Notes: a model not told the origin generated them from the sequence alone. DNA of 64,000 bases from an uncultured Gammaproteobacteria bacterium (GCA_964537895.1 CAZIDK010000002.1:82684-146683); one strand, 5' to 3'. Counted from the first letter of the stretch, positions 40,703-62,200 are shown. Translations and numbers: made by a program.

Positions 40703-41425
40703 GTGAATATGTCTAAAAGAAGATCAAGATTAAGTCTTAAAACGGAAAAAAGAACCCGTAAGACAATTTTCTTAACCAGTCTTGGAATACTGATAATTTT
40801 AATTTTGCTTATTAAGTTTGGCATTAATATACTGGTCGGTTTTAGTGTTTTTTTGGCAGGCACTAAGAATCAAGCTTTGACAACATCTAGCTCTTCTAGT
40901 AACACCTTTATCGCTCCCCCGGTTCTAAATCCTCTTCCTAGCGCCACAAACAGCGCCAGGATTGTAATTTCGGGTAAGTCCCAATCTGATAAAACAGTTA
41001 AACTTTATATAAATAACGATTTAAAAGATACAACTCAAGCCGACAAAGACGGGAATTTTTCATTTATTCAAACTCTTTCTGCCGGAGACAACCGGATTGA
41101 AACAAAAGCTGATAAAAATAATAAATCCAGTGATTTTTCCAATAGCTTTACTGTTTTTTTGAAAAATAACGCACCTTCTTTGACCGTAGACTTTCCTTCC
41201 AACGGACAATCATTTTCAAAAGATCAAAACAGCGTTAACGTAAAAGGAAAAACAGATTCGGAAACAAGCGTTACTGTTAATGGCTTTTGGGCAATTATAG
41301 ATGAGAACAGCAATTTCTCTTACAATCTTCCCCTTCAGAATGGAGACAATCAAATAAAAATAACCGCTACAGATCAGGCCGGAAACAAAACCGAAAAGGA
41401 TTTAAAAGTTACCTATTCTCAGTAA
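40703..41425 (+). CDS. Membrane-anchored surface protein with Ig-like (Big) beta-sandwich repeats
   Basis: N-terminal TM helix, then two repeats of about 90 aa each ending in the pattern DKDGNFSF / ENSNFSY. Confidence 0.4.
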   Translation: MNMSKRRSRLSLKTEKRTRKTIFLTSLGILIILILLIKFGINILVGFSVFLAGTKNQALTTSSSSSNTFIAPPVLNPLPSATNSARIVISGKSQSDKTVKLYINNDLKDTTQADKDGNFSFIQTLSAGDNRIETKADKNNKSSDFSNSFTVFLKNNAPSLTVDFPSNGQSFSKDQNSVNVKGKTDSETSVTVNGFWAIIDENSNFSYNLPLQNGDNQIKITATDQAGNKTEKDLKVTYSQ

Positions 41426-42608
41426 GTCCCGTTACAATCCATATCCATTGAAAAATTAACACATAAAATAGACTATTTATAAATAAACTATTAAAAATTA
41501 ATCCCGCAAGCGAAGAAAAAAATATTATTGAAAAGACGTTATTTTTTAGATTTTTTTTAGCAAGCAAAAATAAATTATAAAGCAAGTAAGTATAGGCCCC
41601 AAATCCGACAATCCCTGTTGTCGCAAGAATAAAAAGGAAGCTGTTATCGGTTCCTGCTCCCGAGTGAGTAATTTGCCAGATTTTATTATTTAAACCATAT
41701 TTATTTTGCGCGTATCGGTATGCGTTAAAACCAACACCGAATACCGGACTGCTTTGAAATATTTTTAAAGCAACTTGTGAAGATTCTATTCTTTGCTGGC
41801 TTGAAAATGTTCTAAACAAATTAGTTCCTTCGGTTTGAAACGATTTTGGTATTATAAAAATAATTAGTAAAAGAAGTGTTATTGAGGCAGCTATCATCTT
41901 TTTTCTGCCAATTAAGAAAAGAAACGTTGCGGTGCTTAAAATAAGCATAATTAAAGCGCTTCTTGAATAAGTCAAATAAACTGCGATTAAAACAAAAACT
42001 CCCAATACGCTCAACACAAAACTATGCAAAAGTAATTTCTTTCTAAGAAAATCGTAAGTTAATCCCAAAATGAATATAAAAAACAGAACAAAAAAGCTAC
42101 CGGCAAAATTTGGATCAAGAAAACTGGAAAACATTCTGTAAAGATGCTCATCCCATCCTAAATAAAATAAATTTTTCAAACTGGGATATAAAAAATATTG
42201 CGCGTAGCCGGCTACAACAAATAATAATCCTGAAAACAATAATAAGTAAGGGATTTTATTTCTAAACTCTTTATTAAAACCCCTAACAATAAAAAACAGC
42301 AGGGCATACATTACCCATCTTAACAGGTATAAGAATGAAATTAAAAAATCTGTAACTGAAAGATTTGCTATGTTTAAAACAAGTGAAATTAAGGCGACCG
42401 TAATAAAAATAAGTATTGGTTTAGCAAGGCTATTTTTATTAATCCCCTTCTTATTCAAAACGTGATAAGAAACCCAGGCAACAATTAAGGCTATTAAAAA
42501 AACATCGTTTATGGAAAATGCAACGCCATTTGGAAACTGAAACCTGCCAATTTCAGCAATTGGAAAACTCATAATTAATAATGAAAAAATAGTTTTTAAT
42601 ACGACCAT
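41409..42608 (-). CDS. O-antigen ligase / Wzy-like polytopic membrane protein
   Basis: About 10-12 TM helices with one larger periplasmic loop, sitting in a glycan-assembly gene context. Confidence 0.4.
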   Translation of the reverse strand: MVVLKTIFSLLIMSFPIAEIGRFQFPNGVAFSINDVFLIALIVAWVSYHVLNKKGINKNSLAKPILIFITVALISLVLNIANLSVTDFLISFLYLLRWVMYALLFFIVRGFNKEFRNKIPYLLLFSGLLFVVAGYAQYFLYPSLKNLFYLGWDEHLYRMFSSFLDPNFAGSFFVLFFIFILGLTYDFLRKKLLLHSFVLSVLGVFVLIAVYLTYSRSALIMLILSTATFLFLIGRKKMIAASITLLLLIIFIIPKSFQTEGTNLFRTFSSQQRIESSQVALKIFQSSPVFGVGFNAYRYAQNKYGLNNKIWQITHSGAGTDNSFLFILATTGIVGFGAYTYLLYNLFLLAKKNLKNNVFSIIFFSSLAGLIFNSLFINSLFYVLIFQWIWIVTGLTENR

Positions 42609-44245
42609 TCTTGTCCTCCTAAAGAATAAAGTTTTACTTTTGTAATCGGATTATAATAGATTTGCTGCCAATTATTAAATTTTTTAGGTAGGTCGCTATT
42701 TTGAATACCAATATAATTAAATTTATCCCCTTTCTTCACCCAGCTTGAGTCAATAAACGGAAAATCTACATAAAATAAATTATGGAATCCAAAAAGAAGA
42801 ACTTTATCCGTAGGTTTTATATTATTTTTAAAATAATTATCTGTATCGTAAAAGTCTCCAAATGCAAAATTTAAGTTTTTTGTTAAAAACTCTGCTTTTG
42901 TTTCTTTTCCTAAAACAACGGGTATATATTTTTTGTTTGCCAATGTTCTATATCCGATTGAAGTCAAGCTTATGAATATAATTATCATTAATAGAAAATT
43001 TTTAAGTTTAATATTCTTAAGCTTACCTACCGAATAAACCGCTAAAACAGAAAACGCGGGAAGATACGGAAGTATAAATCTTCCTCCGCCGATTCTAGGC
43101 GTCAAATACCATAATAATAAGCCTAATAATGAGTACATATAAATAATTTTAAATTCTCTCTTAGCTTTTGTGAAAAAAATAAACAATAGAGGTAAAACAG
43201 CTAAATAAATAGGAGATATAGGATCATTAGAATATATAAAAAGGTTTAATAAATCATTCATTACGTTTGAAATGTTTGGCAAACTAAAACCGGTTCCTAT
43301 ATCTATACTTTTGCTAAAAAATGGATAAAAAGGATTGCCGGTATTAATAAAGGCAAAAATAAACCAAGGCAAAGGAACTAAGATAGAAAAAAAGCAAAAA
43401 TATAAAATATTAGTAATCAAATAATGAATTTTTTCTTTATTCATTAAATATAAATATATAAAAAGTGAGATAAATATGAAGACTGATTCCAAGGCTATTA
43501 TTTTTGCTGAAATAGCCAGTCCCAACATTGTTCCGGAAATTGCTAACCATTTTCTTTGCTTATTTTCCATCCATTTTAAGAATCCCCAAAGAGCCAGCAC
43601 TTCAAAAAATGTTCTTGCTAAATCAATGTATGCAGTTATAGATTCCCAACCGACAACCAAATTGGAATAAAAAATTAAAGCGGCAAGTAAGGATAAATTT
43701 TTCGATAAATATTTTTTTGACAGTTTATAAATTACTACTAACGTCAATATTCCAAATATAAAATGTATAAGCTTAGCACCTAACTCGTTTCCAAACAAGA
43801 GTAAAGGAATATACAACATTTCTGTCAATTTTGGCATATCAGAATAAAATAAAAGGTTTCCGGGAATATGAAAAATGGCATATTGCAGGATATATAGCTT
43901 TGGAAGAGTTAAATGATACCAAAGCGCATCAAAAGAAATTTCCGGTCCCAAAACGCCTATTAAATTAATACTGATCTGCAGAATAAATATCAGAACTAAT
44001 AACGATTCAAATCTATTATTCTTTATATAATTTAATACATATCTTGGATTTATTGTTTTAGCGGTTTCTCTTAAAGACGCTAATTTTTTAAAAAGCTTAA
44101 CTAGCTTATTTTTATAGTAAAAGCCAATTATAAAAATAAAGATCAGAGTTATAGATGTGAGGACGGATTTATATATTAGTCCCAAAACTCCAAGTGAAAA
44201 AATGAGATATGAATAAGTTCCAATCAAAATAGCTAACGAAAACAT
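42596..44245 (-). CDS. GT-C-fold membrane glycosyltransferase (PMT/ArnT-like)
   Basis: Polytopic N-terminal region with an acidic first loop, then a soluble C-terminal domain. Confidence 0.4.
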   Translation of the reverse strand: MFSLAILIGTYSYLIFSLGVLGLIYKSVLTSITLIFIFIIGFYYKNKLVKLFKKLASLRETAKTINPRYVLNYIKNNRFESLLVLIFILQISINLIGVLGPEISFDALWYHLTLPKLYILQYAIFHIPGNLLFYSDMPKLTEMLYIPLLLFGNELGAKLIHFIFGILTLVVIYKLSKKYLSKNLSLLAALIFYSNLVVGWESITAYIDLARTFFEVLALWGFLKWMENKQRKWLAISGTMLGLAISAKIIALESVFIFISLFIYLYLMNKEKIHYLITNILYFCFFSILVPLPWFIFAFINTGNPFYPFFSKSIDIGTGFSLPNISNVMNDLLNLFIYSNDPISPIYLAVLPLLFIFFTKAKREFKIIYMYSLLGLLLWYLTPRIGGGRFILPYLPAFSVLAVYSVGKLKNIKLKNFLLMIIIFISLTSIGYRTLANKKYIPVVLGKETKAEFLTKNLNFAFGDFYDTDNYFKNNIKPTDKVLLFGFHNLFYVDFPFIDSSWVKKGDKFNYIGIQNSDLPKKFNNWQQIYYNPITKVKLYSLGGQEWSY

Positions 44246-44351
44246 ATCCCCCCTCTACAAAGCAAATATTCTATGTAGAGAAATATTACAATGAAAACAA
44301 AAAATACATAAAGCGGGATAAGAATTTTCTTAGATAATTTTAATTTGACAA

Positions 44352-45104
44352 TTAGTTTTTGCTTTTGTAGGTCCATAATTTGGCTCTGACTAAAAATGAA
44401 TGAAAACTCATCATAATTGCAAAAACCAAGCCTTCGATTCCATCTAAAAATCCCAGCTTCAGAAAATAATTTAAGAAAAACTTTGCCTTTGGATATAAAA
44501 CTATTTTATAAAAATTAGTTCTAATGCCACTGTCATAAAGTTCTTTTGCTCTCAAGTCCGTATAATAATTTATTTCTCTTAAAAAACTCCCGATAGCCTG
44601 ATGGGGATAATGTAAAAGCGGCATTTTGAAATTTCCTAAATTTCCGCTTATTTTCCAAACTTCGTGAACCCTACCATGCCAAACTCCGGCGTTTTTCTTT
44701 GCAAATCTCAAAAGCTTGATATTTCCAGTCTCTCCATGCTTTAATTCTTTTCCCCACAAAATATCCCTTCTTTTTATGTAAAACCCACTGAATTCTATAT
44801 TTTTTGAAGAAACACAATCCATTATTTCCCCCTTTAAGCTATTGCTAGGCCTTTCGTCGGCATCTACAAACAATATCCACTCCCCTCTTGCTTTAGATAA
44901 ACCAAAGTTTCTCTGTGCAGAAAAGTCTCCCTGAAGCTCATGCTGGAATATTTTTACTCTTGGATTAAAGTTTTTAATTACTTGTAACGTTCTATCTGTG
45001 GAAAAATCATCAACTACGATTATTTCATCGCACCAGTCAATGCTTTCTAAACAATCTACGATATTGTTTTCTTCATTTTTAGTTAAAATTATTGTGCTAA
45101 TCAT
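44352..45104 (-). CDS. Glycosyltransferase family 2
   Basis: N-terminal ISTIILTKNEE...IIVVDDFSTD (DxD region). Confidence 0.6.
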   Translation of the reverse strand: MISTIILTKNEENNIVDCLESIDWCDEIIVVDDFSTDRTLQVIKNFNPRVKIFQHELQGDFSAQRNFGLSKARGEWILFVDADERPSNSLKGEIMDCVSSKNIEFSGFYIKRRDILWGKELKHGETGNIKLLRFAKKNAGVWHGRVHEVWKISGNLGNFKMPLLHYPHQAIGSFLREINYYTDLRAKELYDSGIRTNFYKIVLYPKAKFFLNYFLKLGFLDGIEGLVFAIMMSFHSFLVRAKLWTYKSKN

Positions 45105-45105
45105 A

Positions 45106-47298
45106 TTACTTTCTCACAACTATTCCCTTTTTAGTTTCCGAAATAATAATCTTAAGTTTAACATTTTTTTCTGCTGGAGGATGCTTTTTCCACCATAATA
45201 AATACTCATAATTCATCGTAAAACTTTCGAACTGGCTTCCCGAACCCATACCTATTAAATTATATTCCTCGCCATTAGCTAATTCAATTATTTTATCTAC
45301 CGCACTTATTCTTTGTGTAAATCCGTTTGTTTGGCTGCTTTTAAAGCTGGCATAGGAATTAAAAACAACTATCAGAAAAAAAGCAACCATTGAAACAGTT
45401 CTTATCTTCTCTCTGCCCAGTAAATAATCAAAAAATAAAGCTATAAGTAAAATTATTAAAGGAAAGGTTATGGGCAGGTAAGCATCTGAAGGAGACTTAT
45501 TTATCAATATTCCGCCAATTGAAGTTAGCAAAAATATTAAAAGCAGTAGTTTCGGATTTTCCAAATTAAAATTATTTTTTTTAAGTAAATCCTTAACTGC
45601 AATAACAACCGATAAACTAAAAAGAAAAAGAGCTATGGCAAGACTTGCTTCAAACGTGATTTTCTGCATGCTTTGCAGTAAGAACTTAACCACAACGGCA
45701 ATGCCTGAATTAGCTCCTTCCAGAGAATGTTTAAATAAAAAGCTAAAGGGCTTATATATAAAAACCCATCCTAAAAAAACAAGAGTTTGTTTGAATCCGT
45801 TTGTAAAATCGTAAACAATAATTGGCGCCATTACGGTAATAAGCCCTGTTATTGAATAAATGAATATTTTTCTATTCAAGATATTTTTTATCCAGTGTTT
45901 TCTTTTATAAAGACCGTATAAAAATATAAAAAATAAAGGGAAAAAGAGGCTAAACGTTGCAAGCTCCAAATTGTAAAGAAGTGAAAGTAATATTACTATT
46001 AGCGGAAAATACAAAGCCTGCCCCTTCAGCCATTTATAAATACAGTAAAAATATAATATTGTAAAAAATGGAACTACGGAAGGATCAAAAGGCATCCTCT
46101 CAAAAAAAACAATAAGAGGCGAAACCGCGTATAAAGATGCCGCTACTATTCCTACCCTTTGAGAAAACATTTCCGAACCCAATTTATACATCAAAAAAGT
46201 AGCTCCGACTCCAAATGCTGCAGTAAGTAGTCCTCCTGATATTGGATTAAAATTTCCTAATAAAAGAGCTACGGAAAGCATATATGTCCATAAAGGTCCC
46301 TGATGGAGCCATGTATGGCTCGACGTTATGCCGACAAGCGGAATTTTTCCTTCTATAAGTAAATCTCTTGCCGATAGGTAAAACCACCCCTGGTCTCCGA
46401 TAAAAACCATGCTTTGGGAAAGATTGTAAATTCTAAGAAATAAAGCTAGTAATAATGTTAATAATATCAAGAAGAAAGTCTTATTAATTCTTAAAAATGC
46501 CTCGACCAGTAATGCCTTAACAATACCGTAATGTTTTTTAAAGTACAAAAACCTGCTTCTTGAAAAAATTTTATTTGAATTTCTTAATTGCTTGGTGCTG
46601 GCGCCTACTTCATGAAATATTTTTGCTTTTGATAAAAGATAAATCTTGTAACCTAATTTCCTGACCCGGTTAGATACGTCATCTTCCTCAAAGTATAGGA
46701 AAAACTTTTCGTCAAAACCGTTTATTTTATCAAACAATTTACGGGAAATCATAAACGCGGTACCAGGGCAGACCTCTATCTCTTTAAGTGCTGTATGATT
46801 CCAATCTTTTAGCCAATACTCTCTTGAAAAACGATTCTTCGGAAATATTTTTTCAATAAATGAAAGGCAGATTATACCCTTGAGCGGGGTAAGTTCACTT
46901 GTCCCTTGAAGAACAAACGGCTTTTCGTCTTTATCCACCAACAAGGGAGATACAATGCCTACATTTTTGTTTCTAGTGAGAAAACTCGCTAATTCGTCAA
47001 TCGTGTTCTTGAAAACCAGAGTATCAGGATTTAAAATAAATAAATATTCCCCTTTTGCATATTTTGCCCCCAAATTATTTCCTCCGCCGTATCCTAGATT
47101 AGATGGACTTTTTATATATTTAACGTCAGGAAATAATTTTAACAATTCTTTCTCTATTACACTTTCTTCATCGTTATCGACGACTATAATTTCAAAAGAA
47201 GTTTTAGGTTTTGAGTCGTATATTGAGTTTATGCAGGCAAAAAGTCTTTCTTTTACTTTATAATTTACTATAATTATTGAGACCTTTAGATTTTTCAT
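45106..47298 (-). CDS. Fusion protein: N-terminal GT2 domain plus C-terminal polytopic GT-C-like membrane domain
   Basis: VSIIIVNYKVKE...VVDNDEES GT2 core, followed by about 12 TM helices. Confidence 0.5.
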   Translation of the reverse strand: MKNLKVSIIIVNYKVKERLFACINSIYDSKPKTSFEIIVVDNDEESVIEKELLKLFPDVKYIKSPSNLGYGGGNNLGAKYAKGEYLFILNPDTLVFKNTIDELASFLTRNKNVGIVSPLLVDKDEKPFVLQGTSELTPLKGIICLSFIEKIFPKNRFSREYWLKDWNHTALKEIEVCPGTAFMISRKLFDKINGFDEKFFLYFEEDDVSNRVRKLGYKIYLLSKAKIFHEVGASTKQLRNSNKIFSRSRFLYFKKHYGIVKALLVEAFLRINKTFFLILLTLLLALFLRIYNLSQSMVFIGDQGWFYLSARDLLIEGKIPLVGITSSHTWLHQGPLWTYMLSVALLLGNFNPISGGLLTAAFGVGATFLMYKLGSEMFSQRVGIVAASLYAVSPLIVFFERMPFDPSVVPFFTILYFYCIYKWLKGQALYFPLIVILLSLLYNLELATFSLFFPLFFIFLYGLYKRKHWIKNILNRKIFIYSITGLITVMAPIIVYDFTNGFKQTLVFLGWVFIYKPFSFLFKHSLEGANSGIAVVVKFLLQSMQKITFEASLAIALFLFSLSVVIAVKDLLKKNNFNLENPKLLLLIFLLTSIGGILINKSPSDAYLPITFPLIILLIALFFDYLLGREKIRTVSMVAFFLIVVFNSYASFKSSQTNGFTQRISAVDKIIELANGEEYNLIGMGSGSQFESFTMNYEYLLWWKKHPPAEKNVKLKIIISETKKGIVVRK

Positions 47299-47304
47299 AA
47301 ATAA

Positions 47305-48381
47305 TTAGATTATTGTCTTAGCAATATTCAAAAAACTATTTGCGCTTTTTCCCCAGGTAAATTTATCTAAAACTAGTTTCCTCCCGTTTTTCCCCATTTC
47401 GACTCTTAGTTTGTCATCCGAAAGCAAAAAGTCTATTTTATCTTTTAACTCTTCCTGTTTTCTTTCAATCAAAAACCCTGTTTTGCCCTCGATTACAGAT
47501 TCCCTGAATCCACCTTCGTTCACGGCTACTACCGGAACTTCACAGGCCATTGATTCTATGGGAATTAACCCGAACGGCTCACTTCTGCTTAGTGCTAGAA
47601 CAATTTTTGACTTATTAATTTCTTCCGTCAAATTTTCTTCTGCAATACCCTCCCCTTTTTCGTTTCTTACGACATACCGGACCGAAGGTTTTTTCTTATA
47701 TATTTTCAGAGTTGCGTTAAGCAAATCATATCCCTCTATGGAAGATTTTTCGCCTATAAATAACAGGTCATAAGGTTTTTTAATGTTTTTGGGAGAAAAT
47801 CTGTCCGTGTCTGCTCCCAGATAGCATACCTTAGCATTAATACCGTAAGCGTCGTATATATTATCTCTTGAAAATTCGGAGTTTGCTAAAACAATTCCTG
47901 CATTGTGGATATTTCCCTTATCTATCAGTTTTCTTATTTTTCGGTTATAGAATTCGTATTGTTTTTTAAAAAGATTCAAATTACGGGGAATTACCATTAA
48001 AGGGTCATAAATCATTCTCAATGGTTCCTGGCAAAAATATATTGTTTTATTAATCATTCGCAATAAAAATGGCGCTTGGGTAAATTTTGAGGGGCTCACG
48101 AAAACAAAATCGTAGTCTTTATCTTGCATAATTTTTGCAATTTTTCTATGAAGAAAAAATAATCTGATTAATCCTATTGAATCACGATAAATTCTTGACT
48201 TGCTTCCTGCAAATTTAAAATAATAAACCTTGTTAAAAATTGAGGGAACTCTTGAATCTTCCCCATCGTCAACATAATACAAATCTACCTCGTGTTCTTT
48301 ACCGAGGATTTTTCCGTATTCCTCAACCACCTTTCTGGCTCCACTTAAAGGAGTTAATTCATGAAAAAATGCTATTTTCAT
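47305..48381 (-). CDS. Glycosyltransferase family 4 (GT-B)
   Basis: Motif EPFGLIPIESMACEVPVVAVNEGGFRESV (E-X7-E). Confidence 0.6.
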   Translation of the reverse strand: MKIAFFHELTPLSGARKVVEEYGKILGKEHEVDLYYVDDGEDSRVPSIFNKVYYFKFAGSKSRIYRDSIGLIRLFFLHRKIAKIMQDKDYDFVFVSPSKFTQAPFLLRMINKTIYFCQEPLRMIYDPLMVIPRNLNLFKKQYEFYNRKIRKLIDKGNIHNAGIVLANSEFSRDNIYDAYGINAKVCYLGADTDRFSPKNIKKPYDLLFIGEKSSIEGYDLLNATLKIYKKKPSVRYVVRNEKGEGIAEENLTEEINKSKIVLALSRSEPFGLIPIESMACEVPVVAVNEGGFRESVIEGKTGFLIERKQEELKDKIDFLLSDDKLRVEMGKNGRKLVLDKFTWGKSANSFLNIAKTII

Positions 48382-49217
48382 TTCTTATTTACTAATATAC
48401 TAACGAAATCACTTCCACAGAGTATATTAAAAGGAAATTTTCTAGAAATTGGGTCCAAAAATACCAAAAAATTAAAAATTGTATCTTTAGAACTAAATAT
48501 TGGTTTTCTGACTGTAACATTACTACTTTCTAAGCTTCCCTCGAATTTAAATTTTTTAAATAAACTTGAAAGTGAAAAATATGTTGACTCATTAATATGC
48601 ATTATTAAATGAGAGTCAGTTCTTATTTGTGAAGGAGAAGCAATGTTTGGATATTTACTGCTATTTATAGTATTCCAAAATTTTGTAATTAAACTACCTA
48701 CTGGATAAGAGTAAAATCTATAAAAAAAATCGTTGAAGAGCTTATTGGGCGCAGTATGAATAATAAGCTTACCTTTTGGCTTAAGAACTCTTTTAATCTC
48801 TTTGAAAGCAAGTTCTAATTCCTCGGGATACAAATGCTCTACAACATCAGTCATAATTATCAAATCGAATGAATTATCTTTAAATTTAAGTTTTTTTGCA
48901 TCCATATATAGGAATTTTGTTTTAGATTGCACTAACTTAGATTGCTTTTTTTGAGCTAATTTCGCTAAACCTATTGAATCTTTTGAGTAATCTACTCCTA
49001 CACCCTCTGCTCCATGTTTTGCCGCATAAAATATCATTTCCCCTCTTCCACACCCTACATCTAACACTTTCTGTCCCGGTTTAATTTTAAAGTGTTTAAT
49101 CAATTCTTTAAATCTAACCTCAAGCTCTTTTCCGTAACTTTTATGGAATTCTTGATATCCAGTACAATCCGTTAAATAATATTTTTTGGTATAAACGCTT
49201 GGACTAACTCTTCTCAT
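48378..49217 (-). CDS. Class I SAM-dependent methyltransferase
   Basis: Motif I VLDVGCGRGEM. Confidence 0.6.
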   Translation of the reverse strand: MRRVSPSVYTKKYYLTDCTGYQEFHKSYGKELEVRFKELIKHFKIKPGQKVLDVGCGRGEMIFYAAKHGAEGVGVDYSKDSIGLAKLAQKKQSKLVQSKTKFLYMDAKKLKFKDNSFDLIIMTDVVEHLYPEELELAFKEIKRVLKPKGKLIIHTAPNKLFNDFFYRFYSYPVGSLITKFWNTINSSKYPNIASPSQIRTDSHLIMHINESTYFSLSSLFKKFKFEGSLESSNVTVRKPIFSSKDTIFNFLVFLDPISRKFPFNILCGSDFVSILVNKK

Positions 49218-49220
49218 AGA

Positions 49221-56632: not shown

Positions 56633-58474
56633 ATGCTAAACGCACAAATAACCAGCCTGCCTTCAAATATTCTAAACAATATAAATTATCTAAAACAAGA
56701 CTATCTGGGATTAAATCCAAATTTTGATTTTTTAGTTAATTTTACTTTTGGTTTTATCATATCAATTTCCTTTTTAATTATTTCCCTTTTAATAGGACAA
56801 AAAATCAGGAGTTTGTTTTTTATAAATGCTGATCTTAAGGATATTAATTATTTAGTTGATATTGCCCTCGGAACAATAGCAATCGGAACCGGAGTGGCTT
56901 TGTTGGGATTTTTCTCTCTATTGAATACACCCGCACTCTTATCCTATCTAATATTGTTGGTGATAATTTCATTTTATAGATTTAAACCTGCTTACTTAAA
57001 AAACGTAAAGAAAAGTTTATTGCTTAACTTAAGATTATTAAAAAAGAATAAATTCGTTTTTTTATGGATAACGCTTTTTATAATCCTTGCTCTTGTTAAT
57101 TTAATCAATCCGGAAGCAAGAGAAGACCAGTACCACGTAGATTTGCCAAAAATGTATCTTGCAAAGCAGAGCATTATGATACCACCCAGGGAGCAAATAC
57201 AAGTTTCCGCAAGCCCGCTTTTATCAGAAATGTCCTATTTAATGGGTGTTTTCTTATGGTCCGGAGAGTCTGCTAGATATATACATTTTTTGTTTTATTT
57301 ACTGGCAATACTGACTTTGTTTGAATTCTCCAAAATCAAAGGATACAAATTTGCTGTCTATGCCCCTTTATTATTCGCTACGGCACCCGTAGTTATACAT
57401 GAAGCATCATCTATGTATGTAGACTTTCAATGGATATTTTATTTTTTATTGTCTATTTTTATTATTACTTTTAACAAAAAGCTCAATTATTCAAATTTAG
57501 CTTTGGCGGGATTATTTTTGGGAGGAATGGTAGCAACAAAACTTTGGACAATTGTATTTATTCCTATTTCCGTTTTGTATTTAATAATTTTGTTAAAAAA
57601 TAATAGTGTTAATAAAATATTAAAAAGTTGCTTTGTATACGTAGCTATGACTCTATCCGTGTCGTTGATATGGTTTTTAAGAGCTTTTCTCTTAACAGGA
57701 AATCCGTTGTACCCGGCCTTTGACAATTCATCAGGCATCTCAATATCGCTATCTTCTGTTATCGGATTTAATTACCCCCTTTTAAATCCGATATCTTATA
57801 TAAATGTTTTTAGTCCTTTATTTTTTATCGGAAGCATCTTTCTTTTGTATCGGCTTAGGAGTAATATAAAAATCTTTTGGAATAACAAACTGTTTATTTT
57901 TTTCTTACTGTTGCTTGCATTATATTTATCAATACATTATCCGTTTGGAAGATATCTCCTTGGGCTTTATGTATTTTTTATAATTTTTGCTTCCATGGGA
58001 ATATATAGACTAATAAATATTTCCCGGCTTTCAAGGATTTTTTTGAATATTCTCCTTCTTCTTTTATTCTTGTACTACCTTATTAACTCCCTTCTTGTTT
58101 TACCCTATTCGCTGGAACTTGCCGATAAAAACAGACATTTGACCAGAATTCTTTCAAGAGACAATTCCAGCTATTACGATTTTAACAGACAATTTAATAA
58201 ACATATTTCTAGAAACGACTACGTAGCTACATACGGAATATTCGGCTATTATTACGCAAACTTTCGTTATATTGATTTTAATTTTATCTTTGATAGCAAG
58301 AACAGATCGTTTGATTTATATAAAAAAAGCGGAGTGACAAAATTATTTATCAAGGGTGGCGATATAAACTGGTTTTGTCTAAAAGAAAACATAAACGATT
58401 GCGATAAGTCTAAATACTCGTATGTTTCAACATATATGGGTACCCAACCGTATTATCTTTATAATATAAAATAG
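56633..58474 (+). CDS. Polytopic membrane protein, GT-C-like (acidic motif in first extracytoplasmic loop)
   Basis: NPEAREDQYH loop, followed by many TM helices. Confidence 0.3.
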   Translation: MLNAQITSLPSNILNNINYLKQDYLGLNPNFDFLVNFTFGFIISISFLIISLLIGQKIRSLFFINADLKDINYLVDIALGTIAIGTGVALLGFFSLLNTPALLSYLILLVIISFYRFKPAYLKNVKKSLLLNLRLLKKNKFVFLWITLFIILALVNLINPEAREDQYHVDLPKMYLAKQSIMIPPREQIQVSASPLLSEMSYLMGVFLWSGESARYIHFLFYLLAILTLFEFSKIKGYKFAVYAPLLFATAPVVIHEASSMYVDFQWIFYFLLSIFIITFNKKLNYSNLALAGLFLGGMVATKLWTIVFIPISVLYLIILLKNNSVNKILKSCFVYVAMTLSVSLIWFLRAFLLTGNPLYPAFDNSSGISISLSSVIGFNYPLLNPISYINVFSPLFFIGSIFLLYRLRSNIKIFWNNKLFIFFLLLLALYLSIHYPFGRYLLGLYVFFIIFASMGIYRLINISRLSRIFLNILLLLLFLYYLINSLLVLPYSLELADKNRHLTRILSRDNSSYYDFNRQFNKHISRNDYVATYGIFGYYYANFRYIDFNFIFDSKNRSFDLYKKSGVTKLFIKGGDINWFCLKENINDCDKSKYSYVSTYMGTQPYYLYNIK

Positions 58475-58478
58475 CTAT

Positions 58479-60317
58479 ATGTTAGATCCCTACAGAATGG
58501 TTCTTGTTAATATAATTGCTTCTGCTTTAGTTTTAGCAGGAACTCTTTTTTATAGATATATTTATCCAAAAAAGAAAATTAATTTATTTGTTTTGCTTCT
58601 TATTATTTCTATCCTACCGATAATAAGTATCTTTAGAACGGGTGCTTACGAAAGCGGAGACTTTAACATTCATATCTATAGAATAATGTCTTTTTATGAT
58701 TCCTTAAAAGAAGGTATTCTTATGCCTTCCTGGGCAGCTGAGCTCAATGCCACATACGGTAACCCACTATTTATCTTTAATTACCCTCTTCCCTACTACG
58801 TTATTTCTTTTCTTCATTTTCTAGGACTTAGTTTTATTTCAAGTATGAAATTATATCTGGGCCTTACTCTGTACCTGTCTGGAATTTTCATGTATCTACT
58901 TTTTAAAGAGCTTTCAAATAATAAGCTTGCAGCTTTTACGGCGGCAATATTCTATATTTTTAATCCATATCATTTAATAGACGTCCACTTTAGAGCAACA
59001 TTGGGAGAGTCTACTATCTTTACTCTTGTTCCATTATTATTTTTGTTTATCGTCAAATATTTAAAAGAGGACAAAAAGATATACCTTGTTTTAATTATTT
59101 TCTTCACTGACTTGCTCTTTCTTGCCCATCCGCTTTTAGCCGGAGTTTTCTTAGGGATAGCTGTACTATACGTTATATTATTTGCCAAAAATACAAGAAG
59201 AATATTGTCTTCAATAGCTTCGCTTTTAATTGGGGCTTTTTCTTCTATTTATACTTGGAGTCCTTTCTATCTATATTCACAATATATGTTTAAATTTAAT
59301 GAGCCGTCTGTCAGAGACATTTCCTTTTATCCCTTCTACGAATTATTTGTTTCTCCTTGGAGATTTGGATTTCTGTTTCAGGGTCCAAAAGGAGAATTAG
59401 CCCAAATAATAGGATATACACAAATCCTCGTGGTTCTTCTATCGATAACACTGATTGTATTTAAGAAAATTCAGGAAAAGATAAAAAAAGAATATATCTT
59501 CTGGTTATCCTTATTTTTCCTTACTCTCTTCATGATGAATCCTGGCTCAAACTTTTTTTGGAGATACATGCCTAATATTGGTTCTATGTTAAATTTGTAC
59601 GGCAGACTATCTCTTGTCTTAAGCTTCGGCACTTCTGTAATTGCCGGATACTTTATTCTTTCTTTTCCTTTAAGAAAAAGGCCAATGTTTATATACTTAC
59701 TAATTTTAATAACCATATCATACACAATATTAAACTGGGGACATCGAAGGGTAATACCGGAAATTAACGACGCTGTGCTTAGAAAGAACGTTTGGATTAG
59801 CACTGCGGTGGCCGAGGGGACTACCGCTTATTTTTTAAACACTAAATGGGCGGATATTAACAATTTTTGGTTTTCAAAACGTCCGGATAAACCACTAGAT
59901 GTTCTTAAAAGAAATGCGACTGTAAAACCAATTAAAAGAACTTCTATTTTACACACTTATGATGTTGATGCTAAAACGGCTTTAACTATTAGAGAAAACA
60001 CACTATATTTTCCCGGATGGACTTTAAAAAGCAACAATAAAATCGTAAATATATATCCGGGTGAAAGAGGAATAATCAATGCGTACCTGCCCGCCGGAAA
60101 ACAATACCTAACATTGTTTTATAAAGATATACCGGCTTATGCGCTTACAAAAACAATAAGCGGTATATCATTCTTAGTATTAATACTTATATTAGTCATT
60201 TATTATCTATTTTCTTTTTTGCCTATCCATAACATTTCTCCCGGTAAGCGTAAAACCCAACTTGGTTTAAGTATAAAAAAGGGAGCAAGCAATTTCATAA
60301 GCCCCGGACGGAAGTAA
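58479..60317 (+). CDS. Polytopic membrane protein, GT-C/YfhO-like
   Basis: GAYESGDF loop after TM1-2, followed by many TM helices. The 3' end overlaps the convergent methyltransferase gene by 115 nt. Confidence 0.3.
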   Translation: MLDPYRMVLVNIIASALVLAGTLFYRYIYPKKKINLFVLLLIISILPIISIFRTGAYESGDFNIHIYRIMSFYDSLKEGILMPSWAAELNATYGNPLFIFNYPLPYYVISFLHFLGLSFISSMKLYLGLTLYLSGIFMYLLFKELSNNKLAAFTAAIFYIFNPYHLIDVHFRATLGESTIFTLVPLLFLFIVKYLKEDKKIYLVLIIFFTDLLFLAHPLLAGVFLGIAVLYVILFAKNTRRILSSIASLLIGAFSSIYTWSPFYLYSQYMFKFNEPSVRDISFYPFYELFVSPWRFGFLFQGPKGELAQIIGYTQILVVLLSITLIVFKKIQEKIKKEYIFWLSLFFLTLFMMNPGSNFFWRYMPNIGSMLNLYGRLSLVLSFGTSVIAGYFILSFPLRKRPMFIYLLILITISYTILNWGHRRVIPEINDAVLRKNVWISTAVAEGTTAYFLNTKWADINNFWFSKRPDKPLDVLKRNATVKPIKRTSILHTYDVDAKTALTIRENTLYFPGWTLKSNNKIVNIYPGERGIINAYLPAGKQYLTLFYKDIPAYALTKTISGISFLVLILILVIYYLFSFLPIHNISPGKRKTQLGLSIKKGASNFISPGRK

Positions 60318-61096
60318 TATCTTCCTAAGTAATTATTCATAAGTTTTTGAGTAGCTACGAAAGGATAAGTATCAGTTTTTATATGCCTAATCCCGCATAA
60401 TTTCCCTAAAAGACTCAAGCTCTTCTCTGTGAAATACTGTATATGCTGCCCTTGCCAGTACCACCAGCGTCTTCCTAAAATCTTGCTTATAATTGAATCT
60501 ACGTCTCCGGTCCAAATCACGAGCACTCCTCCAGGCTTTAATAGTTTGTTTAAGTTATTCATTTCATCTAAGGGAAATTCAAAGTGCTCTATTACTCCAA
60601 ATAAGGTAATAATGTCATAATATTCAGGAAATTCCTTTACCAACGACTTCAAGGTTTTTCTATGAATTTTTATCCCCCTCTTTTTCGCTATTTCCGAAGA
60701 CCATTTTGACAACTCAAGACCCTCCACTGAAAAACCAAAATCTTTAGCAACTGTTAGGAATTCACCCGTTGCACAACCCACGTCTAATAATTTACCAGTA
60801 GGAACTAACTTTTTTATCAAGGGCATTATTATACCTGCAGATATCTTTGCAGAAATCTCATATTTAAGGTATTGCTCATCTACGACATCCTCATAGTTTT
60901 TGTAAATATTTGCTGGAATTGGAGAACAAAATACATGAGTACATTTATTGCATTTTAAAGACCTAAAGGTTTTATTAGAATCAGGAGTTTTTGTATAAGT
61001 AAAGGATAACTTACTTAATTCTATGTTTGCAGGGTAAAGTTCGACAACATCGGAAGAATTGCATATTGGACATTTGGCTAATTTCATAAAAAACAT
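60203..61096 (-). CDS. SAM-dependent methyltransferase with N-terminal Cys4 zinc ribbon
   Basis: CPICNS...CNKC ribbon; motif I LLDVGCATGEF. Confidence 0.55.
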   Translation of the reverse strand: MFFMKLAKCPICNSSDVVELYPANIELSKLSFTYTKTPDSNKTFRSLKCNKCTHVFCSPIPANIYKNYEDVVDEQYLKYEISAKISAGIIMPLIKKLVPTGKLLDVGCATGEFLTVAKDFGFSVEGLELSKWSSEIAKKRGIKIHRKTLKSLVKEFPEYYDIITLFGVIEHFEFPLDEMNNLNKLLKPGGVLVIWTGDVDSIISKILGRRWWYWQGQHIQYFTEKSLSLLGKLCGIRHIKTDTYPFVATQKLMNNYLGRYYFRPGLMKLLAPFFILKPSWVLRLPGEMLWIGKKENR

Positions 61097-61123
61097 TTAT
61101 TGATTTTACCTTAAAATACTAAG

Positions 61124-62200
61124 CTATTCAATATTCCAAAGTTTTAAATAAAGATTAACCATATTATCCCACGTTTTATCTTTTACCCATTCATATCCTT
61201 TATTAATTTTTATATTTTTTGATGTAGTATCTGTTAAATATTTTTCTAATTCAGATAGAATTTCCGTATGGTCTTTAGATATCGAAATAAATTCGGAAAA
61301 TGGAGTAATTTTTAGATAATCTTTCTTAATATCATTGTTATAAACTGCTAGAACAAATTTTTTACTCATTAAAGATTCAAGTATTCCTAGGTATCTTGAT
61401 GTGAATACAAAAGATGTTCTATTGATATAAATGAGTACATTTTTTACGAATCCCTTAAATTCTGTGTTCAATTGATTTTGTGCGGCATACCTCTTAGCTT
61501 CGCCCATTTGGACACCATCACCAAGAACAACTAGTCTTAATCCTTTATGGCTTCTCCCTACTTCTTTAAATGCTTTAAGGTACTCCATTATCCCTGCCTC
61601 TTCTTCCAATCTTCCCAAAAAAACAACTAAGTTCTTGTCGTAATTTTTACCGTTTTTTTCTTTTTGAAAATCCACCGCTCCATATGTTACAAAGGTTGGT
61701 TTTGTGCCATACCATTTTTTAAGAAAGTCTCCAACGCAAATATTTCCATAAGATAATTTCTCCGAAAGCTTGTGCATAAAGATTGCTCTTTTATTTGGAA
61801 TATTATTTCCTTCATATCCATGAAAAGTTGTATAAACTTTTTTAAAAGGGAATAAAAATCTAAAAGGAAGATACCAGAAGAAAACGTCGTGGCAATGAAC
61901 CACATCCGCATTTCTAATCAAGCCTCTATGCTTCCAAAGCTCCTTCCAGAGCCTGAATTTCTTGAACCAATCGTCTTTTCCGAGGTTAATATTATAGGAC
62001 TCTAGGTTTTTGAGCTTCCCCACGAGCCTGGCACTAGAGGAACTTGACTGATAAGAATTATTATGGGACTCTGGGATATTTTCCGATATTACTATAACTC
62101 TATGCCCTTTTTCCGCCAATCTGGTACCAACCTCGTAAACATGCTTCTCCACCCCACCGATATGAGGGTAAAACAACCTTGATAAAAACAAAACCGTCAT
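61124..62200 (-). CDS. Glycosyltransferase family 4 (GT-B)
   Basis: C-terminal Rossmann half with an E-X7-E-like motif (TSRYLGILESLMS). Confidence 0.5.
   Translation of the reverse strand: MTVLFLSRLFYPHIGGVEKHVYEVGTRLAEKGHRVIVISENIPESHNNSYQSSSSSARLVGKLKNLESYNINLGKDDWFKKFRLWKELWKHRGLIRNADVVHCHDVFFWYLPFRFLFPFKKVYTTFHGYEGNNIPNKRAIFMHKLSEKLSYGNICVGDFLKKWYGTKPTFVTYGAVDFQKEKNGKNYDKNLVVFLGRLEEEAGIMEYLKAFKEVGRSHKGLRLVVLGDGVQMGEAKRYAAQNQLNTEFKGFVKNVLIYINRTSFVFTSRYLGILESLMSKKFVLAVYNNDIKKDYLKITPFSEFISISKDHTEILSELEKYLTDTTSKNIKINKGYEWVKDKTWDNMVNLYLKLWNIE

What the first reader, a model, noticed from the sequence alone, without database searches (positions are those of the whole stretch)
40703..62200. Accessory surface-glycosylation island, about 21.5 kb, with three GT2-fused GT-C-type proteins, downstream of the tRNA-fragment array
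Nineteen consecutive genes are arranged in alternating strand blocks:
- an Ig-like surface protein and an O-antigen-ligase-like protein;
- three large GT2-N-terminal / polytopic-C-terminal fusion proteins (45106-47298, 51741-53999, 53986-56580), a stand-alone GT2, two GT4, and three further GT-C-like membrane proteins (42596-44245, 56633-58474, 58479-60317);
- a Wzx-like flippase and three methyltransferases, one with a sugar C-methyltransferase architecture.

A polyprenol-phosphate-sugar synthase (Dpm1-like GT2) fused to a GT-C transferase would make and then use the lipid-linked donor in one polypeptide. Three tandem paralogs suggest a multi-step protein-glycosylation or cell-wall-glycosylation pathway that has not been characterised. 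The island starts right after the tRNA-Thr fragment array, consistent with horizontal acquisition.
Basis: partly seen in the sequence, partly recalled or inferred. Interest (0 to 1): 0.6.

Follow-up and report, generated by a model that had tools for sequence, protein, structure and literature searches.

The report
Conserved Levybacteria surface-glycan gene cluster
This is a surface-sugar-building gene cluster of an uncultivated, small-genome bacterium (Candidatus Levybacteria); it sits at the same chromosomal spot in all close relatives examined, so it is not a recently acquired island, and its unusual part is three uncharacterised enzymes that join an inside-the-cell sugar transferase to an outside-facing one.

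Summary
The genes are real, but there are 15 of them, not 19. Pfam and NCBIfam confirm an Ig-like anchored protein, a Wzy_C protein, a Wzx flippase, two GT4s, one free GT2, three methyltransferases (one with sugar C-methyltransferase architecture), three free GT-C-type proteins and three GT2+GT-C fusions.

- **Fusions:** they are not paralogs; pairwise BLASTP finds almost no similarity. Only 51741-53999 carries a Dpm1/ArnC-type GT2 (Foldseek: DPMS 5mlz, E 3e-13). The GT2 of 53986-56580 resembles hyaluronan synthase and PcManGT. The GT2 of 45106-47298 resembles rhamnosyl- and galactofuranosyl-transferases.
- **"Accessory island acquired at the tRNA":** not supported. In about 38 metagenomic and genomic loci, the order atpD-atpC-tRNA-Thr(CGT)-Ig-Wzy_C-GT-C-GT2-fusion-GT4-Wzx recurs. 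A 9-point GC drop is present in 29 of 29 loci. No integrase and no distal repeat were found.
- **What does vary:** the middle cassette has been exchanged between lineages (Wzx, methyltransferases, extra GT2s).

Best reading: a lineage-conserved envelope-glycoconjugate locus. It would combine Wzx/Wzy-type assembly with decoration outside the membrane, using polyprenol-phosphate sugars and GT-C enzymes. The fused enzymes are a new variant of known GtrB/GT-C systems. Interest is moderate.

The parts
40488..40560 (+). tRNA-Thr(CGT), the conserved left-hand neighbour of the cluster
   Evidence: ARAGORN; Rfam tRNA 69.8 bits. The same tRNA abuts the Ig-like gene in all 32 relatives' loci scanned.
40703..41425 (+). 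Membrane-anchored Ig-like surface protein (240 aa). Possible glycan acceptor or scaffold.
   Evidence: Pfam Glucodextran_B 64.8 bits, Big_6, Big_13. One N-terminal hydrophobic segment. An S/T/N/Q-rich linker and a conserved IAPPVLNPLPSATNSA motif recur in 73 loci.
41409..42608 (-). Wzy_C-domain polytopic protein (399 aa): O-antigen-ligase, polymerase or O-oligosaccharyltransferase type
   Evidence: Pfam Wzy_C 64.5 bits. Conserved next to the Ig gene in all loci.
42596..44245 (-). Stand-alone GT-C-type glycosyltransferase (549 aa)
   Evidence: Pfam PMT_2 41.9 bits and PMT 36.8 bits. Conserved in most loci. In L006 it lies next to a stand-alone DPMS-like GT2.
44352..45104 (-). Soluble GT2 glycosyltransferase (250 aa)
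   Evidence: Pfam Glycos_transf_2 77.2 bits. No hydrophobic segment. Conserved at 53-78% identity in relatives.
45106..47298 (-). Fusion F730: rhamnosyl/galactofuranosyl-transferase-like GT2 (about aa 1-260) plus GT-C module (about aa 270-730)
   Evidence: Pfam GT2 70.8 bits, PMT_2 28.1 bits, Glyco_transf_7C. NCBIfam rhamnosyltransferase and GlfT1 hits. More than 120 full-length orthologues. Invariant N90-P91-D92, E204-E205-D207 and G301-D302-x-G304-W305 after the first TM helix.
47305..48381 (-). GT4 glycosyltransferase (358 aa)
   Evidence: Pfam Glycos_transf_1 91.3 bits.
48378..49217 (-). Class I SAM methyltransferase (279 aa); part of the variable cassette
   Evidence: Pfam Methyltransf_11 88.1 bits. 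Present in only some relatives.
49221..50486 (-). Wzx-type MOP flippase (421 aa); part of the variable cassette
   Evidence: Pfam Polysacc_synt_3 239.8 bits. NCBIfam MOP flippase 173 bits. It is 88% identical to L129/L130 but 24% to the closest relative L086.
50504..51748 (+). Methyltransferase with sugar C-methyltransferase architecture (414 aa)
   Evidence: Pfam Methyltransf_13 + Methyltransf_23 + Methyltransf_14, 166 bits. There are one to three copies in relatives.
51741..53999 (-). Fusion F752: DPMS/ArnC-like polyprenol-phosphate sugar synthase GT2 (aa 1-220), a juxtamembrane helix (aa 221-242) and a GT-C module (aa 244-752)
   Evidence: Pfam GT2 65.3 bits, PMT 46.5 bits, PMT_2 43.1 bits. 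NCBIfam ArnC, PgfS, AglJ and PpgS hits. PDB sequence search finds ArnC. AlphaFold pLDDT 84.4. Foldseek finds DPMS 5mlz at E 3e-13 and ArnC, then STT3, AglB, ArnT and ALG9. W272-D273-E274 is invariant in 49 sequences.
53986..56580 (-). Fusion F864: membrane-embedded synthase/PcManGT-like GT2 (aa 1 to about 320, including helices 229-310) plus GT-C module (about aa 324-864)
56633..58474 (+). Polytopic GT-C-like protein (613 aa), paralog of 42596-44245
   Evidence: PMT_2 at only 20.6 bits, below threshold. BLASTP to GTC549: 28% identity over 222 aa, E 8e-20. NCBIfam LIC_10190 family, weak.
58479..60317 (+). Polytopic membrane protein of the PTPS_related (PF10131) family (612 aa); probable GT-C type
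   Evidence: Pfam PF10131 33.5 bits, threshold 26.4. No relative of known structure by sequence. Orthologue in L001 at 48% identity.
60203..61096 (-). Class I SAM methyltransferase with an N-terminal Cys-rich segment (297 aa)
   Evidence: Pfam Methyltransf_23 94.5 bits.
61124..62200 (-). GT4 glycosyltransferase (358 aa), the last glycosylation gene on the right
   Evidence: Pfam Glyco_transf_4 51.2 bits and Glycos_transf_1 45.5 bits. Orthologue in L001 at 62% identity.

Best explanation
The region is a cell-envelope glycoconjugate biosynthesis locus of a Candidatus Levybacteria (Patescibacteria) genome. Its position is inherited, not newly acquired.

Proposed mechanism (inferred from homology):
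1. Cytoplasmic GT4 and GT2 enzymes, with the methyltransferases, build a (methylated) oligosaccharide on undecaprenyl-type lipid.
2. The Wzx flippase moves it across the membrane.
3. The Wzy_C protein polymerises it or ligates it to an acceptor.
4. In parallel, the DPMS/ArnC-like GT2 domain of the 752-aa fusion loads a single sugar onto polyprenol phosphate at the inner face.
5. After flipping, that lipid-linked sugar is used by the fused GT-C module, and probably by some of the five other GT-C modules. They would decorate the polymer or surface proteins on the outer face. The adjacent anchored Ig-like protein is one candidate acceptor.

The other two fusions couple different cytoplasmic GT2 chemistries to their own GT-C modules: one is synthase/PcManGT-like, one rhamnosyl/galactofuranosyl-transferase-like.

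The locus has a conserved scaffold and a central cassette that is swapped between lineages, as in O-antigen and capsule loci.

Shown here: the domain identities, the folds, the invariant motifs, the synteny and the cassette variation. Inferred: the substrates, the acceptor, the order of steps and who flips the lipid-linked monosaccharide.
For: - **Domains:**
- **F752:** the N-domain is closest to ArnC by sequence and to DPMS 5mlz and ArnC by fold. The C-domain matches STT3, AglB, ArnT and ALG9. W-D-E five residues after the first TM helix is invariant in 49 sequences.
- **F730:** invariant G-D-x-G-W after the first TM helix.
- **Split forms:** stand-alone DPMS-like GT2s (about 240 aa) and stand-alone GT-Cs (about 510 aa) are the commoner forms. 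L006 has a free DPMS-like GT2 next to a GT-C in the same locus. This is Rosetta-stone support for functional coupling.
- **Synteny:** atpD-atpC-tRNA-Thr-Ig-Wzy_C-GT-C-GT2-F730-GT4-Wzx recurs in about 38 loci. The F864-F752 pair is adjacent in L001, L003 and a named Levybacteria MAG.
- **Composition:** the GC drop occurs in 29 of 29 loci.
- **Cassette exchange:** the window's Wzx is 88% identical to L129/L130 but 24% to the closest relative.
- **Precedents:** GtrB-like GT2 plus GT-C systems (PMC5836110, PMC11092751). A DPM-like synthase fused to a membrane domain in M. tuberculosis Ppm1 and split in M. smegmatis (PMC3485146).
Against: - No initiating phosphoglycosyl transferase, no GtrA-type small flippase, no chain-length regulator and no NDP-sugar modification genes lie in the cluster. 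None turned up among the 20 upstream ORFs scanned. The pathway is therefore incomplete as encoded here.
- Sugar identity and acceptor are unknown.
- The side of the membrane on which F864's D-E motif lies was not read from coordinates. It is inferred only from loop charges.
- 56633-58474 and 58479-60317 are GT-C only by weak or family-level evidence.
- The metagenomic loci used for synteny were found through the Wzy_C gene, so they cannot show genomes that lack the cluster. Only two relatives came from an unbiased AtpD query.
Confidence: 0.72

Rival explanations
1. Dedicated protein O-glycosylation system. The Wzy_C protein would act as a PglL/WsaB-type O-oligosaccharyltransferase. The PMT-like GT-C modules would act as protein O-glycosyltransferases. 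Targets would be the adjacent Ig-like anchored protein, pilins or an S-layer protein, not a polysaccharide.
For: - The Ig-like protein, with an S/T/N/Q-rich linker after its anchor, is invariably adjacent.
- GtrB plus GT-C glycosylation of Ser/Thr-rich regions of membrane proteins is established in streptococci (PMC11092751).
Against: - PMT_2 also covers ArnT-like lipid and polymer glycosyltransferases. AglB, ALG12 and ArnT score as well as the PMTs do.
- The linker is short (about 15-20 residues) and only 18-38% Ser/Thr.
- Nothing distinguishes a ligase from a polymerase function for Wzy_C.
Confidence: 0.2
2. One reading: an accessory genomic island of about 21.5 kb, horizontally acquired by integration at tRNA-Thr.
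For: - It lies immediately 3' of tRNA-Thr(CGT), which has tRNA-Thr-like 5' and 3' fragments around it.
- GC is 7-10 points below the flank.
- A type I R-M system lies on the far side.
- Gene content in the middle differs between close relatives.
Against: - The same genes sit in the same order at the same site in all relatives examined, at AtpD 76-96% identity. tRNA-Thr(CGT) abuts the Ig gene in the 32 of them scanned for tRNAs.
- The GC drop is present in 29 of 29 loci.
- There is no integrase among the ORFs and no distal tRNA-derived repeat in the window.
- The tRNA fragments are absent from 46 of 51 loci, including the closest relative.
- In relatives, the variable insert lies on the other (5') side of the tRNA.
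Confidence: 0.05
3. The polytopic C-terminal modules of F730 and F864 are no longer catalytic. They would serve only as membrane anchors or scaffolds that hold cytoplasmic GT2 enzymes at the membrane assembly site.
For: - Their PMT_2/PMT scores are low, at 26.6-28.1 bits, just above the Pfam thresholds.
- Their GT2 domains are of kinds that normally act on lipid-linked glycans in the cytoplasm.
Against: - The acidic motif after the first helix of the GT-C module is invariant in 38 and 52 diverse orthologues. So are many other loop residues.
Confidence: 0.1

Closest known systems
Three-component Gtr-type glycosylation systems: GtrB/CsbB/GtlA/SccN-type GT2, GtrA/GtcA flippase and a GT-C enzyme such as YfhO, GtlB, PgtC2 or PgfM1 (PMC5836110, PMC11092751)
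   Same: A DPMS/ArnC/GtrB-class GT2 that should make a polyprenol-phosphate sugar is paired with a polytopic GT-C enzyme. The GT-C carries an acidic motif in its first outer loop. The pair sits in a surface-glycan locus.
   Different: - Here the GT2 and the GT-C are one polypeptide (F752).
- The GT2 has no TM helices of its own.
- No GtrA-like flippase gene is in the cluster.
- Six GT-C modules sit in one locus.
M. tuberculosis Ppm1 (Rv2051c): a DPM-like synthase fused to a polytopic membrane domain, split into two genes in M. smegmatis and C. glutamicum (PMC3485146)
   Same: A polyprenol-phosphate sugar synthase domain is fused to a polytopic membrane partner in some lineages and split in others. 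The product feeds GT-C enzymes.
   Different: In Ppm1 the membrane domain comes first and is not a GT-C glycosyltransferase. From my own knowledge, it is the Lnt-like N-acyltransferase domain. In F752 the partner is the donor-consuming GT-C itself, and it lies C-terminal.
ArnC/ArnT pathway: Und-P-L-Ara4FN synthase plus a GT-C transferase to lipid A
   Same: The F752 GT2 is closest to ArnC by sequence. Its GT-C matches ArnT 5f15 by fold.
   Different: No other arn genes are present. A monoderm Patescibacterium has no lipid A. NCBIfam ArnC scores 49.5 bits against a cut-off of 529, so F752 is not an ArnC equivalog.
Wzx/Wzy-dependent O-antigen, capsule and S-layer-glycan loci
   Same: Wzx flippase, a Wzy_C protein and several GT2/GT4 enzymes and methyltransferases. 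Low GC, conserved flanks and a variable, exchanged centre.
   Different: No initiating phosphoglycosyl transferase and no chain-length regulator are in the cluster. The number of GT-C enzymes is unusual.
Membrane-embedded GT2 enzymes: hyaluronan synthase and PcManGT (PDB 8snc, 6yv7)
   Different: F864 continues into a complete GT-C module. No processive-synthase signature was tested. Its function is unknown.

Membership tests
GT-C fold glycosyltransferases (PMT/PMT_2, ArnT, STT3 type) | Polytopic membrane protein with at least 8 transmembrane helices | tested here: met
   Hydropathy finds many hydrophobic segments in all six modules. The AlphaFold models of F752 and F864 show about 11-13 long helices after the GT2 domain.
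GT-C fold glycosyltransferases (PMT/PMT_2, ArnT, STT3 type) | Conserved acidic (D/E) motif at the start of the first extracytoplasmic loop, just after the first TM helix | tested here: met
   W272-D273-E274 is invariant in 49 F752-family sequences. M356-D357-E358-W359-H360 is invariant in 52 F864-family sequences. G301-D302-x-G304-W305 is invariant in 38 F730-family sequences. The stand-alone proteins were read by eye only (FDALWYH, EDQYH, GDFNIH).
GT-C fold glycosyltransferases (PMT/PMT_2, ArnT, STT3 type) | Fold similarity to solved GT-C enzymes | tested here: met
GT-C fold glycosyltransferases (PMT/PMT_2, ArnT, STT3 type) | Pfam family score above the gathering threshold | tested here: inconclusive
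   Met for 42596-44245, F730, F752 and F864 (PMT_2 and/or PMT) and for 58479-60317 (PF10131). Not met for 56633-58474: 20.6 bits against 26.1.
GT-C fold glycosyltransferases (PMT/PMT_2, ArnT, STT3 type) | Uses a polyprenol-phosphate-linked donor on the outer face of the membrane | not testable with these tools
   Needs biochemistry. Orientation is inferred from the GT2 being directly followed by the first TM helix in F752, and from loop charges in F864.
Polyprenol-phosphate sugar synthases (DPMS/Dpm1, GtrB, ArnC class of GT2) | GT-A domain closer to DPMS, ArnC and GtrB than to other GT2 enzymes | tested here: met
   F752 only. NCBIfam best hits are ArnC, PgfS, AglJ and PpgS. The PDB sequence search finds ArnC. 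Foldseek ranks DPMS 5mlz and then ArnC at ranks 1-10.
Polyprenol-phosphate sugar synthases (DPMS/Dpm1, GtrB, ArnC class of GT2) | The same feature, for the other two fusions (F864, F730) | tested here: not met
Polyprenol-phosphate sugar synthases (DPMS/Dpm1, GtrB, ArnC class of GT2) | DXD metal/nucleotide motif and a juxtamembrane amphipathic helix leading into the membrane | tested here: met
   In F752, 'EMDSDLAHDP' (D95, D97) is conserved in the family consensus. Helix 221-242 precedes TM helix 244-268.
Polyprenol-phosphate sugar synthases (DPMS/Dpm1, GtrB, ArnC class of GT2) | Equivalog-level score to a characterised enzyme | tested here: not met
   All NCBIfam hits are far below their cut-offs, for example ArnC 49.5 against 529 and PgfS 49.5 against 500. 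The sugar specificity is therefore unknown.
Gtr-type three-component glycosylation system | A GtrA/GtcA-like small four-helix flippase encoded with the GT2 and the GT-C | tested here: not met
   The gaps between the cluster's genes are too short to hold such a gene. All 15 ORFs carry other assignments.
Wzx/Wzy-dependent glycan assembly locus | Wzx (MOP) flippase and a Wzy/WaaL-type (Wzy_C) protein | tested here: met
   Polysacc_synt_3 239.8 bits; Wzy_C 64.5 bits.
Wzx/Wzy-dependent glycan assembly locus | An initiating phosphoglycosyl transferase (WecA/MraY-type or WbaP/PglC-type) in the locus | tested here: not met
   None among the 15 cluster ORFs or the 20 upstream ORFs scanned. It may be encoded elsewhere in the genome.
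tRNA-linked integrative genomic island | Integrase or recombinase gene next to the tRNA | tested here: not met
   No integrase family appears in any ORF from 40703 to 63786. The precomputed Pfam record shows none for the four complete genes in the next 10 kb; the fifth, cut at the locus end, was not searched.
tRNA-linked integrative genomic island | Direct repeat of the tRNA 3' part at the distal end | tested here: not met
   The only matches to the tRNA 3'-half pattern lie at 40530-40672 and in two unrelated tRNAs at about 20.4 and 21.2 kb.
tRNA-linked integrative genomic island | Sporadic presence among close relatives, with empty sites | tested here: not met
   Present at the same site in 2 of 2 relatives found through AtpD and in about 38 loci found through Wzy_C. 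The second sample is biased towards presence.
tRNA-linked integrative genomic island | Composition that deviates from the host genome | tested here: inconclusive
   The GC drop is real. It is shared by 29 of 29 related loci, with a mean difference of 0.093, and GC1 is low throughout the cluster genes. It therefore does not indicate recent transfer.

The most novel reading that the evidence does not exclude
Levybacteria may have evolved single-polypeptide 'make, flip and use' glycosylation machines. In F752, the GT-C membrane domain would replace both the synthase's own membrane anchor and the missing GtrA-type flippase. The polyprenol-phosphate sugar would then be synthesised, moved across the membrane and consumed within one protein. 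F864 would be a second, different invention: a synthase-like membrane GT2 coupled to a GT-C. Together with four more GT-C modules, these would build an envelope glycoconjugate of a kind not yet described, one that defines this lineage.
Probability: 0.15. Interest if true: 0.65.

Novelty: new variant of a known kind. Interest (0 to 1): 0.36.

Why it matters
Patescibacteria have very small genomes and live attached to other cells. Their surface chemistry is almost unknown. This lineage keeps about 21 kb of glycosylation genes, including six GT-C modules, at a fixed site. That is a sizeable share of a genome whose relatives yield contigs of about 0.6-0.9 Mb. It suggests the glycoconjugate is central to the lineage's biology, while the swapped central cassette suggests diversifying pressure on its fine structure.

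The fused DPMS-like GT2/GT-C enzyme is a natural Rosetta stone linking donor synthesis to donor use. It could be a convenient single-protein model for studying how lipid-linked monosaccharides are handed from the inner to the outer face of the membrane. It is not a new principle, and the proteins are already in public databases under generic names.

Tried and rejected
1. **Recent island at tRNA-Thr:** rejected on synteny, the shared GC drop, the absence of an integrase and of a distal repeat, and the lineage-specific tRNA fragments.
2. **Three fusions as tandem paralogs:** rejected by all-against-all BLASTP and by the different GT2 classes.
3. **AtpD as a probe for relatives in genome contigs:** too conserved. 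Only 2 of 80 loci were close relatives. The Wzy_C alignment against metagenome contigs worked better.
4. **Sequence search of 58479-60317 and 42596-44245 against the PDB:** no hits.
5. **Look-ups of the last two window ORFs by exact sequence:** failed, probably because the start codon or the window cut differs. The GT4 look-up succeeded and gave the right-hand extension.
6. **Literature searches for a described GT2-GT-C fusion or for Patescibacteria GT-C enzymes:** nothing relevant found. The library is partial, so this is not proof of absence.
7. **Rfam scan of the tRNA region:** only the intact tRNA-Thr.
8. **Split form of F752:** the free GT2 at 44352-45104 is not DPMS-like. A true split DPMS-like GT2 was found in L006 instead.

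Full report
**What is in the sequence**

The window comes from a Patescibacteria genome. Named database hits are Candidatus Levybacteria.

From 40703 to 62200 there are 15 intact, tightly packed ORFs, not 19. Pfam and NCBIfam assign them as follows:

| Coordinates | Strand | Assignment |
|---|---|---|
| 40703-41425 | + | Membrane-anchored Ig-like protein |
| 41409-42608 | - | Wzy_C protein |
| 42596-44245 | - | PMT_2/PMT-type GT-C protein |
| 44352-45104 | - | Soluble GT2 |
| 45106-47298 | - | GT2+PMT_2 fusion ('F730') |
| 47305-48381 | - | GT4 |
| 48378-49217 | - | Methyltransferase |
| 49221-50486 | - | Wzx flippase |
| 50504-51748 | + | Methyltransf_13/23/14 protein (sugar C-methyltransferase architecture) |
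| 51741-53999 | - | GT2+PMT/PMT_2 fusion ('F752') |
| 53986-56580 | - | GT2+PMT/PMT_2 fusion ('F864') |
| 56633-58474 | + | Polytopic protein; PMT_2 below threshold, but a clear paralog of 42596-44245 (28% identity, E 8e-20) |
| 58479-60317 | + | PTPS_related (PF10131) polytopic protein |
| 60203-61096 | - | Methyltransferase |
| 61124-62200 | - | GT4 |

The upstream flank is core housekeeping: PGM/PMM, PPDK, enolase, UvrB, CTP synthase, MurT/GatD, GatA/B, DnaE and the ATP synthase operon. On the right come a small anchored protein of no known family and a type I R-M HsdS that is cut by the window end. HsdM lies beyond it.

**The three fusions are real, but they are three different things**

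All-against-all BLASTP shows almost no similarity between them. F730 and F864 match only in the GT2 part (25% identity, E 9e-6). F752 matches neither.

*F752*
- Its GT2 domain hits ArnC, PgfS, AglJ and PpgS in NCBIfam and ArnC in the PDB by sequence.
- A 49-sequence alignment gave an AlphaFold model with pLDDT 84.4.
- The model's best Foldseek matches are dolichyl-phosphate mannose synthase 5mlz (E 3e-13) and ArnC. These are followed by the GT-C enzymes STT3, AglB, ArnT and ALG9.
- The model runs GT-A domain (1-220), juxtamembrane helix (221-242), first TM helix (244-268), then an invariant W272-D273-E274. This is where GT-C enzymes carry their catalytic acidic motif.
- Because the nucleotide-sugar-using GT2 must be cytoplasmic and is followed directly by one TM helix, the D-E loop should be outside. 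This is an inference.

*F864*
- The model is confident (pLDDT 89.7, pTM 0.87).
- It does not resemble the polyprenol-phosphate sugar synthases: DPMS 15.1, GtrB 15.4, ArnC 14.5.
- M356-D357-E358-W359-H360 is invariant in 52 orthologues.

*F730*
- Its GT2 is rhamnosyltransferase/GlfT1-like.
- G301-D302-x-G304-W305 is invariant after its first TM helix.

**Fused and split forms**

Each fusion family has many full-length orthologues in Levybacteria-type sequences:
- about 48 for F752;
- more than 120 listed for each of F864 and F730.

A search of 1.84 billion representatives with F752 shows the commoner state is split. Stand-alone GT-C proteins are about 500-520 aa. Stand-alone DPMS-like GT2 proteins are about 235-250 aa and 37-55% identical to the F752 GT2 domain. 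Only a few clusters hold full-length fusions.

In L006 a free DPMS-like GT2 lies next to the orthologue of 42596-44245, in the same locus (26% identity over the whole domain, E 6e-13). The same GT-C family also occurs fused to a GT4 domain, at about 885 aa. This fused-versus-split pattern is the classic sign of functional coupling. It has a characterised precedent in M. tuberculosis Ppm1, which is fused there and split in M. smegmatis (PMC3485146).

**It is not an acquired island**

*Synteny*
- Two close relatives found through AtpD carry atpD-atpC-tRNA-Thr(CGT)-Ig-Wzy_C-GT-C-GT2. These are L005 (81% identity) and L006 (78%). L005 also carries the F730 orthologue.
- An alignment of the Wzy_C proteins, scanned against metagenome contigs, returned 80 loci.
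- In all of the roughly 38 loci long enough to judge, tblastn with the window's proteins recovers the same order. AtpD identity is 76-96% and Wzy_C identity 42-77%.
- tRNA-Thr(CGT) abuts the Ig gene in 30 of 30 of these loci scanned.

*Composition*
- The GC drop between the atp genes and the cluster is present in 29 of 29 loci, with mean 0.093 and range 0.055-0.12.
- GC1 is low throughout the cluster genes as well as GC3. That fits AT-rich codons of membrane proteins as well as it fits foreign origin.

*Island hallmarks*
- No integrase is present.
- No further copy of the tRNA 3' half occurs in the window.
- The tRNA fragments are absent from 46 of 51 loci, including the closest relative, where the atpC-Ig gap is 146 nt.
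- Where relatives carry extra DNA at this junction (0.1-4 kb), it lies between atpC and the tRNA, on the other side from the cluster. In L154 it encodes pyrimidine genes.
- More distant Patescibacteria (AtpD 70% or less) lack the cluster after atpC.

The arrangement is therefore a trait of this Levybacteria lineage.

*Caveat.* The 80 metagenomic loci were found through a cluster gene, so they cannot reveal genomes that lack it.

**What does vary**

The closest relative is the 863-kb contig behind L001 and L086 (AtpD 96%). Its cluster proteins are only 60-78% identical to the window's. It also has:
- three C-methyltransferases instead of one;
- an extra GT2;
- an extra 496-aa gene of no known family;
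- no orthologue of 48378-49217;
- a Wzx only 24% identical.

The window's Wzx is 88% identical to that of L129/L130, whose AtpD is only 80% identical. The locus thus has a conserved scaffold and an exchanged central cassette. That is the behaviour of O-antigen and capsule loci, and it is the element of truth in 'accessory'.

**Most likely mechanism**

Homology supports a two-branch model.
1. *Wzx/Wzy branch.* GT4 and GT2 enzymes and the methyltransferases build a lipid-linked oligosaccharide. Wzx flips it. The Wzy_C protein polymerises or ligates it.
2. *Polyprenol-phosphate sugar branch.* The F752 GT2 domain charges polyprenol phosphate with one sugar. GT-C modules then transfer it on the outer face to the polymer or to surface proteins. 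This is how GtrB-like GT2 enzymes work with YfhO, GtlB or PgtC2 in Gram-positive bacteria (PMC5836110; PMC11092751).

The invariably adjacent anchored Ig-like protein, with its S/T/N/Q-rich linker and conserved motif, is a candidate acceptor or scaffold.

Several components are missing from the cluster: an initiating phosphoglycosyl transferase, a GtrA-type flippase, NDP-sugar modification genes and a chain-length regulator. The sugars and the acceptor are unknown.

**Novelty and score**

The locus is a member of a well-known kind, a surface-glycan gene cluster. The fused GT2/GT-C enzymes are an uncharacterised variant of known GtrB/GT-C systems. I found no paper describing them. The sequences are public and auto-annotated; JGI, for example, names one 'GT2 family glycosyltransferase/4-amino-4-deoxy-L-arabinose transferase-like glycosyltransferase'.

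Six GT-C modules conserved at a fixed site in a very small genome is notable, but it does not overturn anything. Interest is 0.36.

Noticed in passing
window 40285-40690: tRNA-Thr fragment array. Two 5'-half-like pieces lie at about 40285-40330 and 40445-40487. Two 3'-half-like pieces lie at about 40575-40612 and 40640-40690. They flank the intact tRNA-Thr(CGT). The outer 3' piece ends in CCCGCCATCGGC, and the tail of the inner 5' piece repeats that string, so they look like decayed copies of tRNA-Thr variants seen in relatives. Only 5 of 51 related loci have any extra fragment.
   Followed up: partly
L141, L148, L150, L153, L154 and others, between atpC and tRNA-Thr: In relatives, a variable insert of 0.1-4 kb sits between atpC and the 5' side of tRNA-Thr. 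In L154 it carries phosphoribosyltransferase, OMP decarboxylase and dihydroorotate dehydrogenase genes. The variable DNA at this junction is on the opposite side of the tRNA from the glycosylation cluster.
   Followed up: partly
window 48378-50486; L129/L130 600-2680; L086 300-1800: The Wzx flippase is 88% identical to that of L129/L130 (AtpD 80%) but only 24% to that of the closest relative (AtpD 96%). The adjacent methyltransferase follows the same pattern. This points to cassette exchange by recombination inside a conserved locus.
   Followed up: partly
window 62992-64000 and beyond (L165 5972-9209): A type I restriction-modification specificity subunit is cut by the window end; the full gene is 367 aa. 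A 710-aa HsdM follows. The low GC (0.31-0.35) continues through them and returns to about 0.40 some 4.5 kb past 62200.
   Followed up: partly
window 62254-62886 (-): A 210-aa protein with one hydrophobic segment and no Pfam or NCBIfam family sits between the last GT4 and the R-M genes.
   Followed up: no
L086 6781-8271; the same position in most related loci: Most relatives carry an extra gene of about 496 aa, with no Pfam family, between the free GT2 and the 549-aa GT-C. In the window these two genes are only 106 nt apart.
   Followed up: partly
proteins P0064, P0073, P0074, P0082, P0089, P0094, P0101, P0105: The GT-C module of F752 also occurs fused to an N-terminal GT4 domain (about 885 aa) in other Levybacteria. 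Fusion of cytoplasmic GT domains to this GT-C therefore seems to have happened more than once.
   Followed up: no
L154 6011-8374: Some related loci carry a YfhO-family (PF09586) GT-C protein of 787 aa in the cluster. In L154 and L156 this sits alongside a stand-alone version of the F752 GT-C.
   Followed up: no
window 13826-14524 (+): A DedA/VTT-domain membrane protein. From my own knowledge, members of this family have been implicated in undecaprenyl-phosphate recycling across the membrane. That would be relevant to a locus that depends on lipid carriers.
   Followed up: no
window 7054-8436, 24717-26773, 29961-30752, 21317-23194: A phosphoglucomutase/phosphomannomutase (sugar-nucleotide supply), a MurT/GatD pair (peptidoglycan amidation), a GGDEF diguanylate cyclase and a PolX-like protein lie in the conserved flank.
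   Followed up: no
window 40294-40863 (-): A 189-aa ORF on the minus strand lies across the tRNA-Thr gene and its fragments. It is almost certainly not a gene.
   Followed up: no
window 923-1960, 3347-4087, 4128-5291 (+): Three ORFs of 246-387 aa with no Pfam family at E 1e-5.
   Followed up: no
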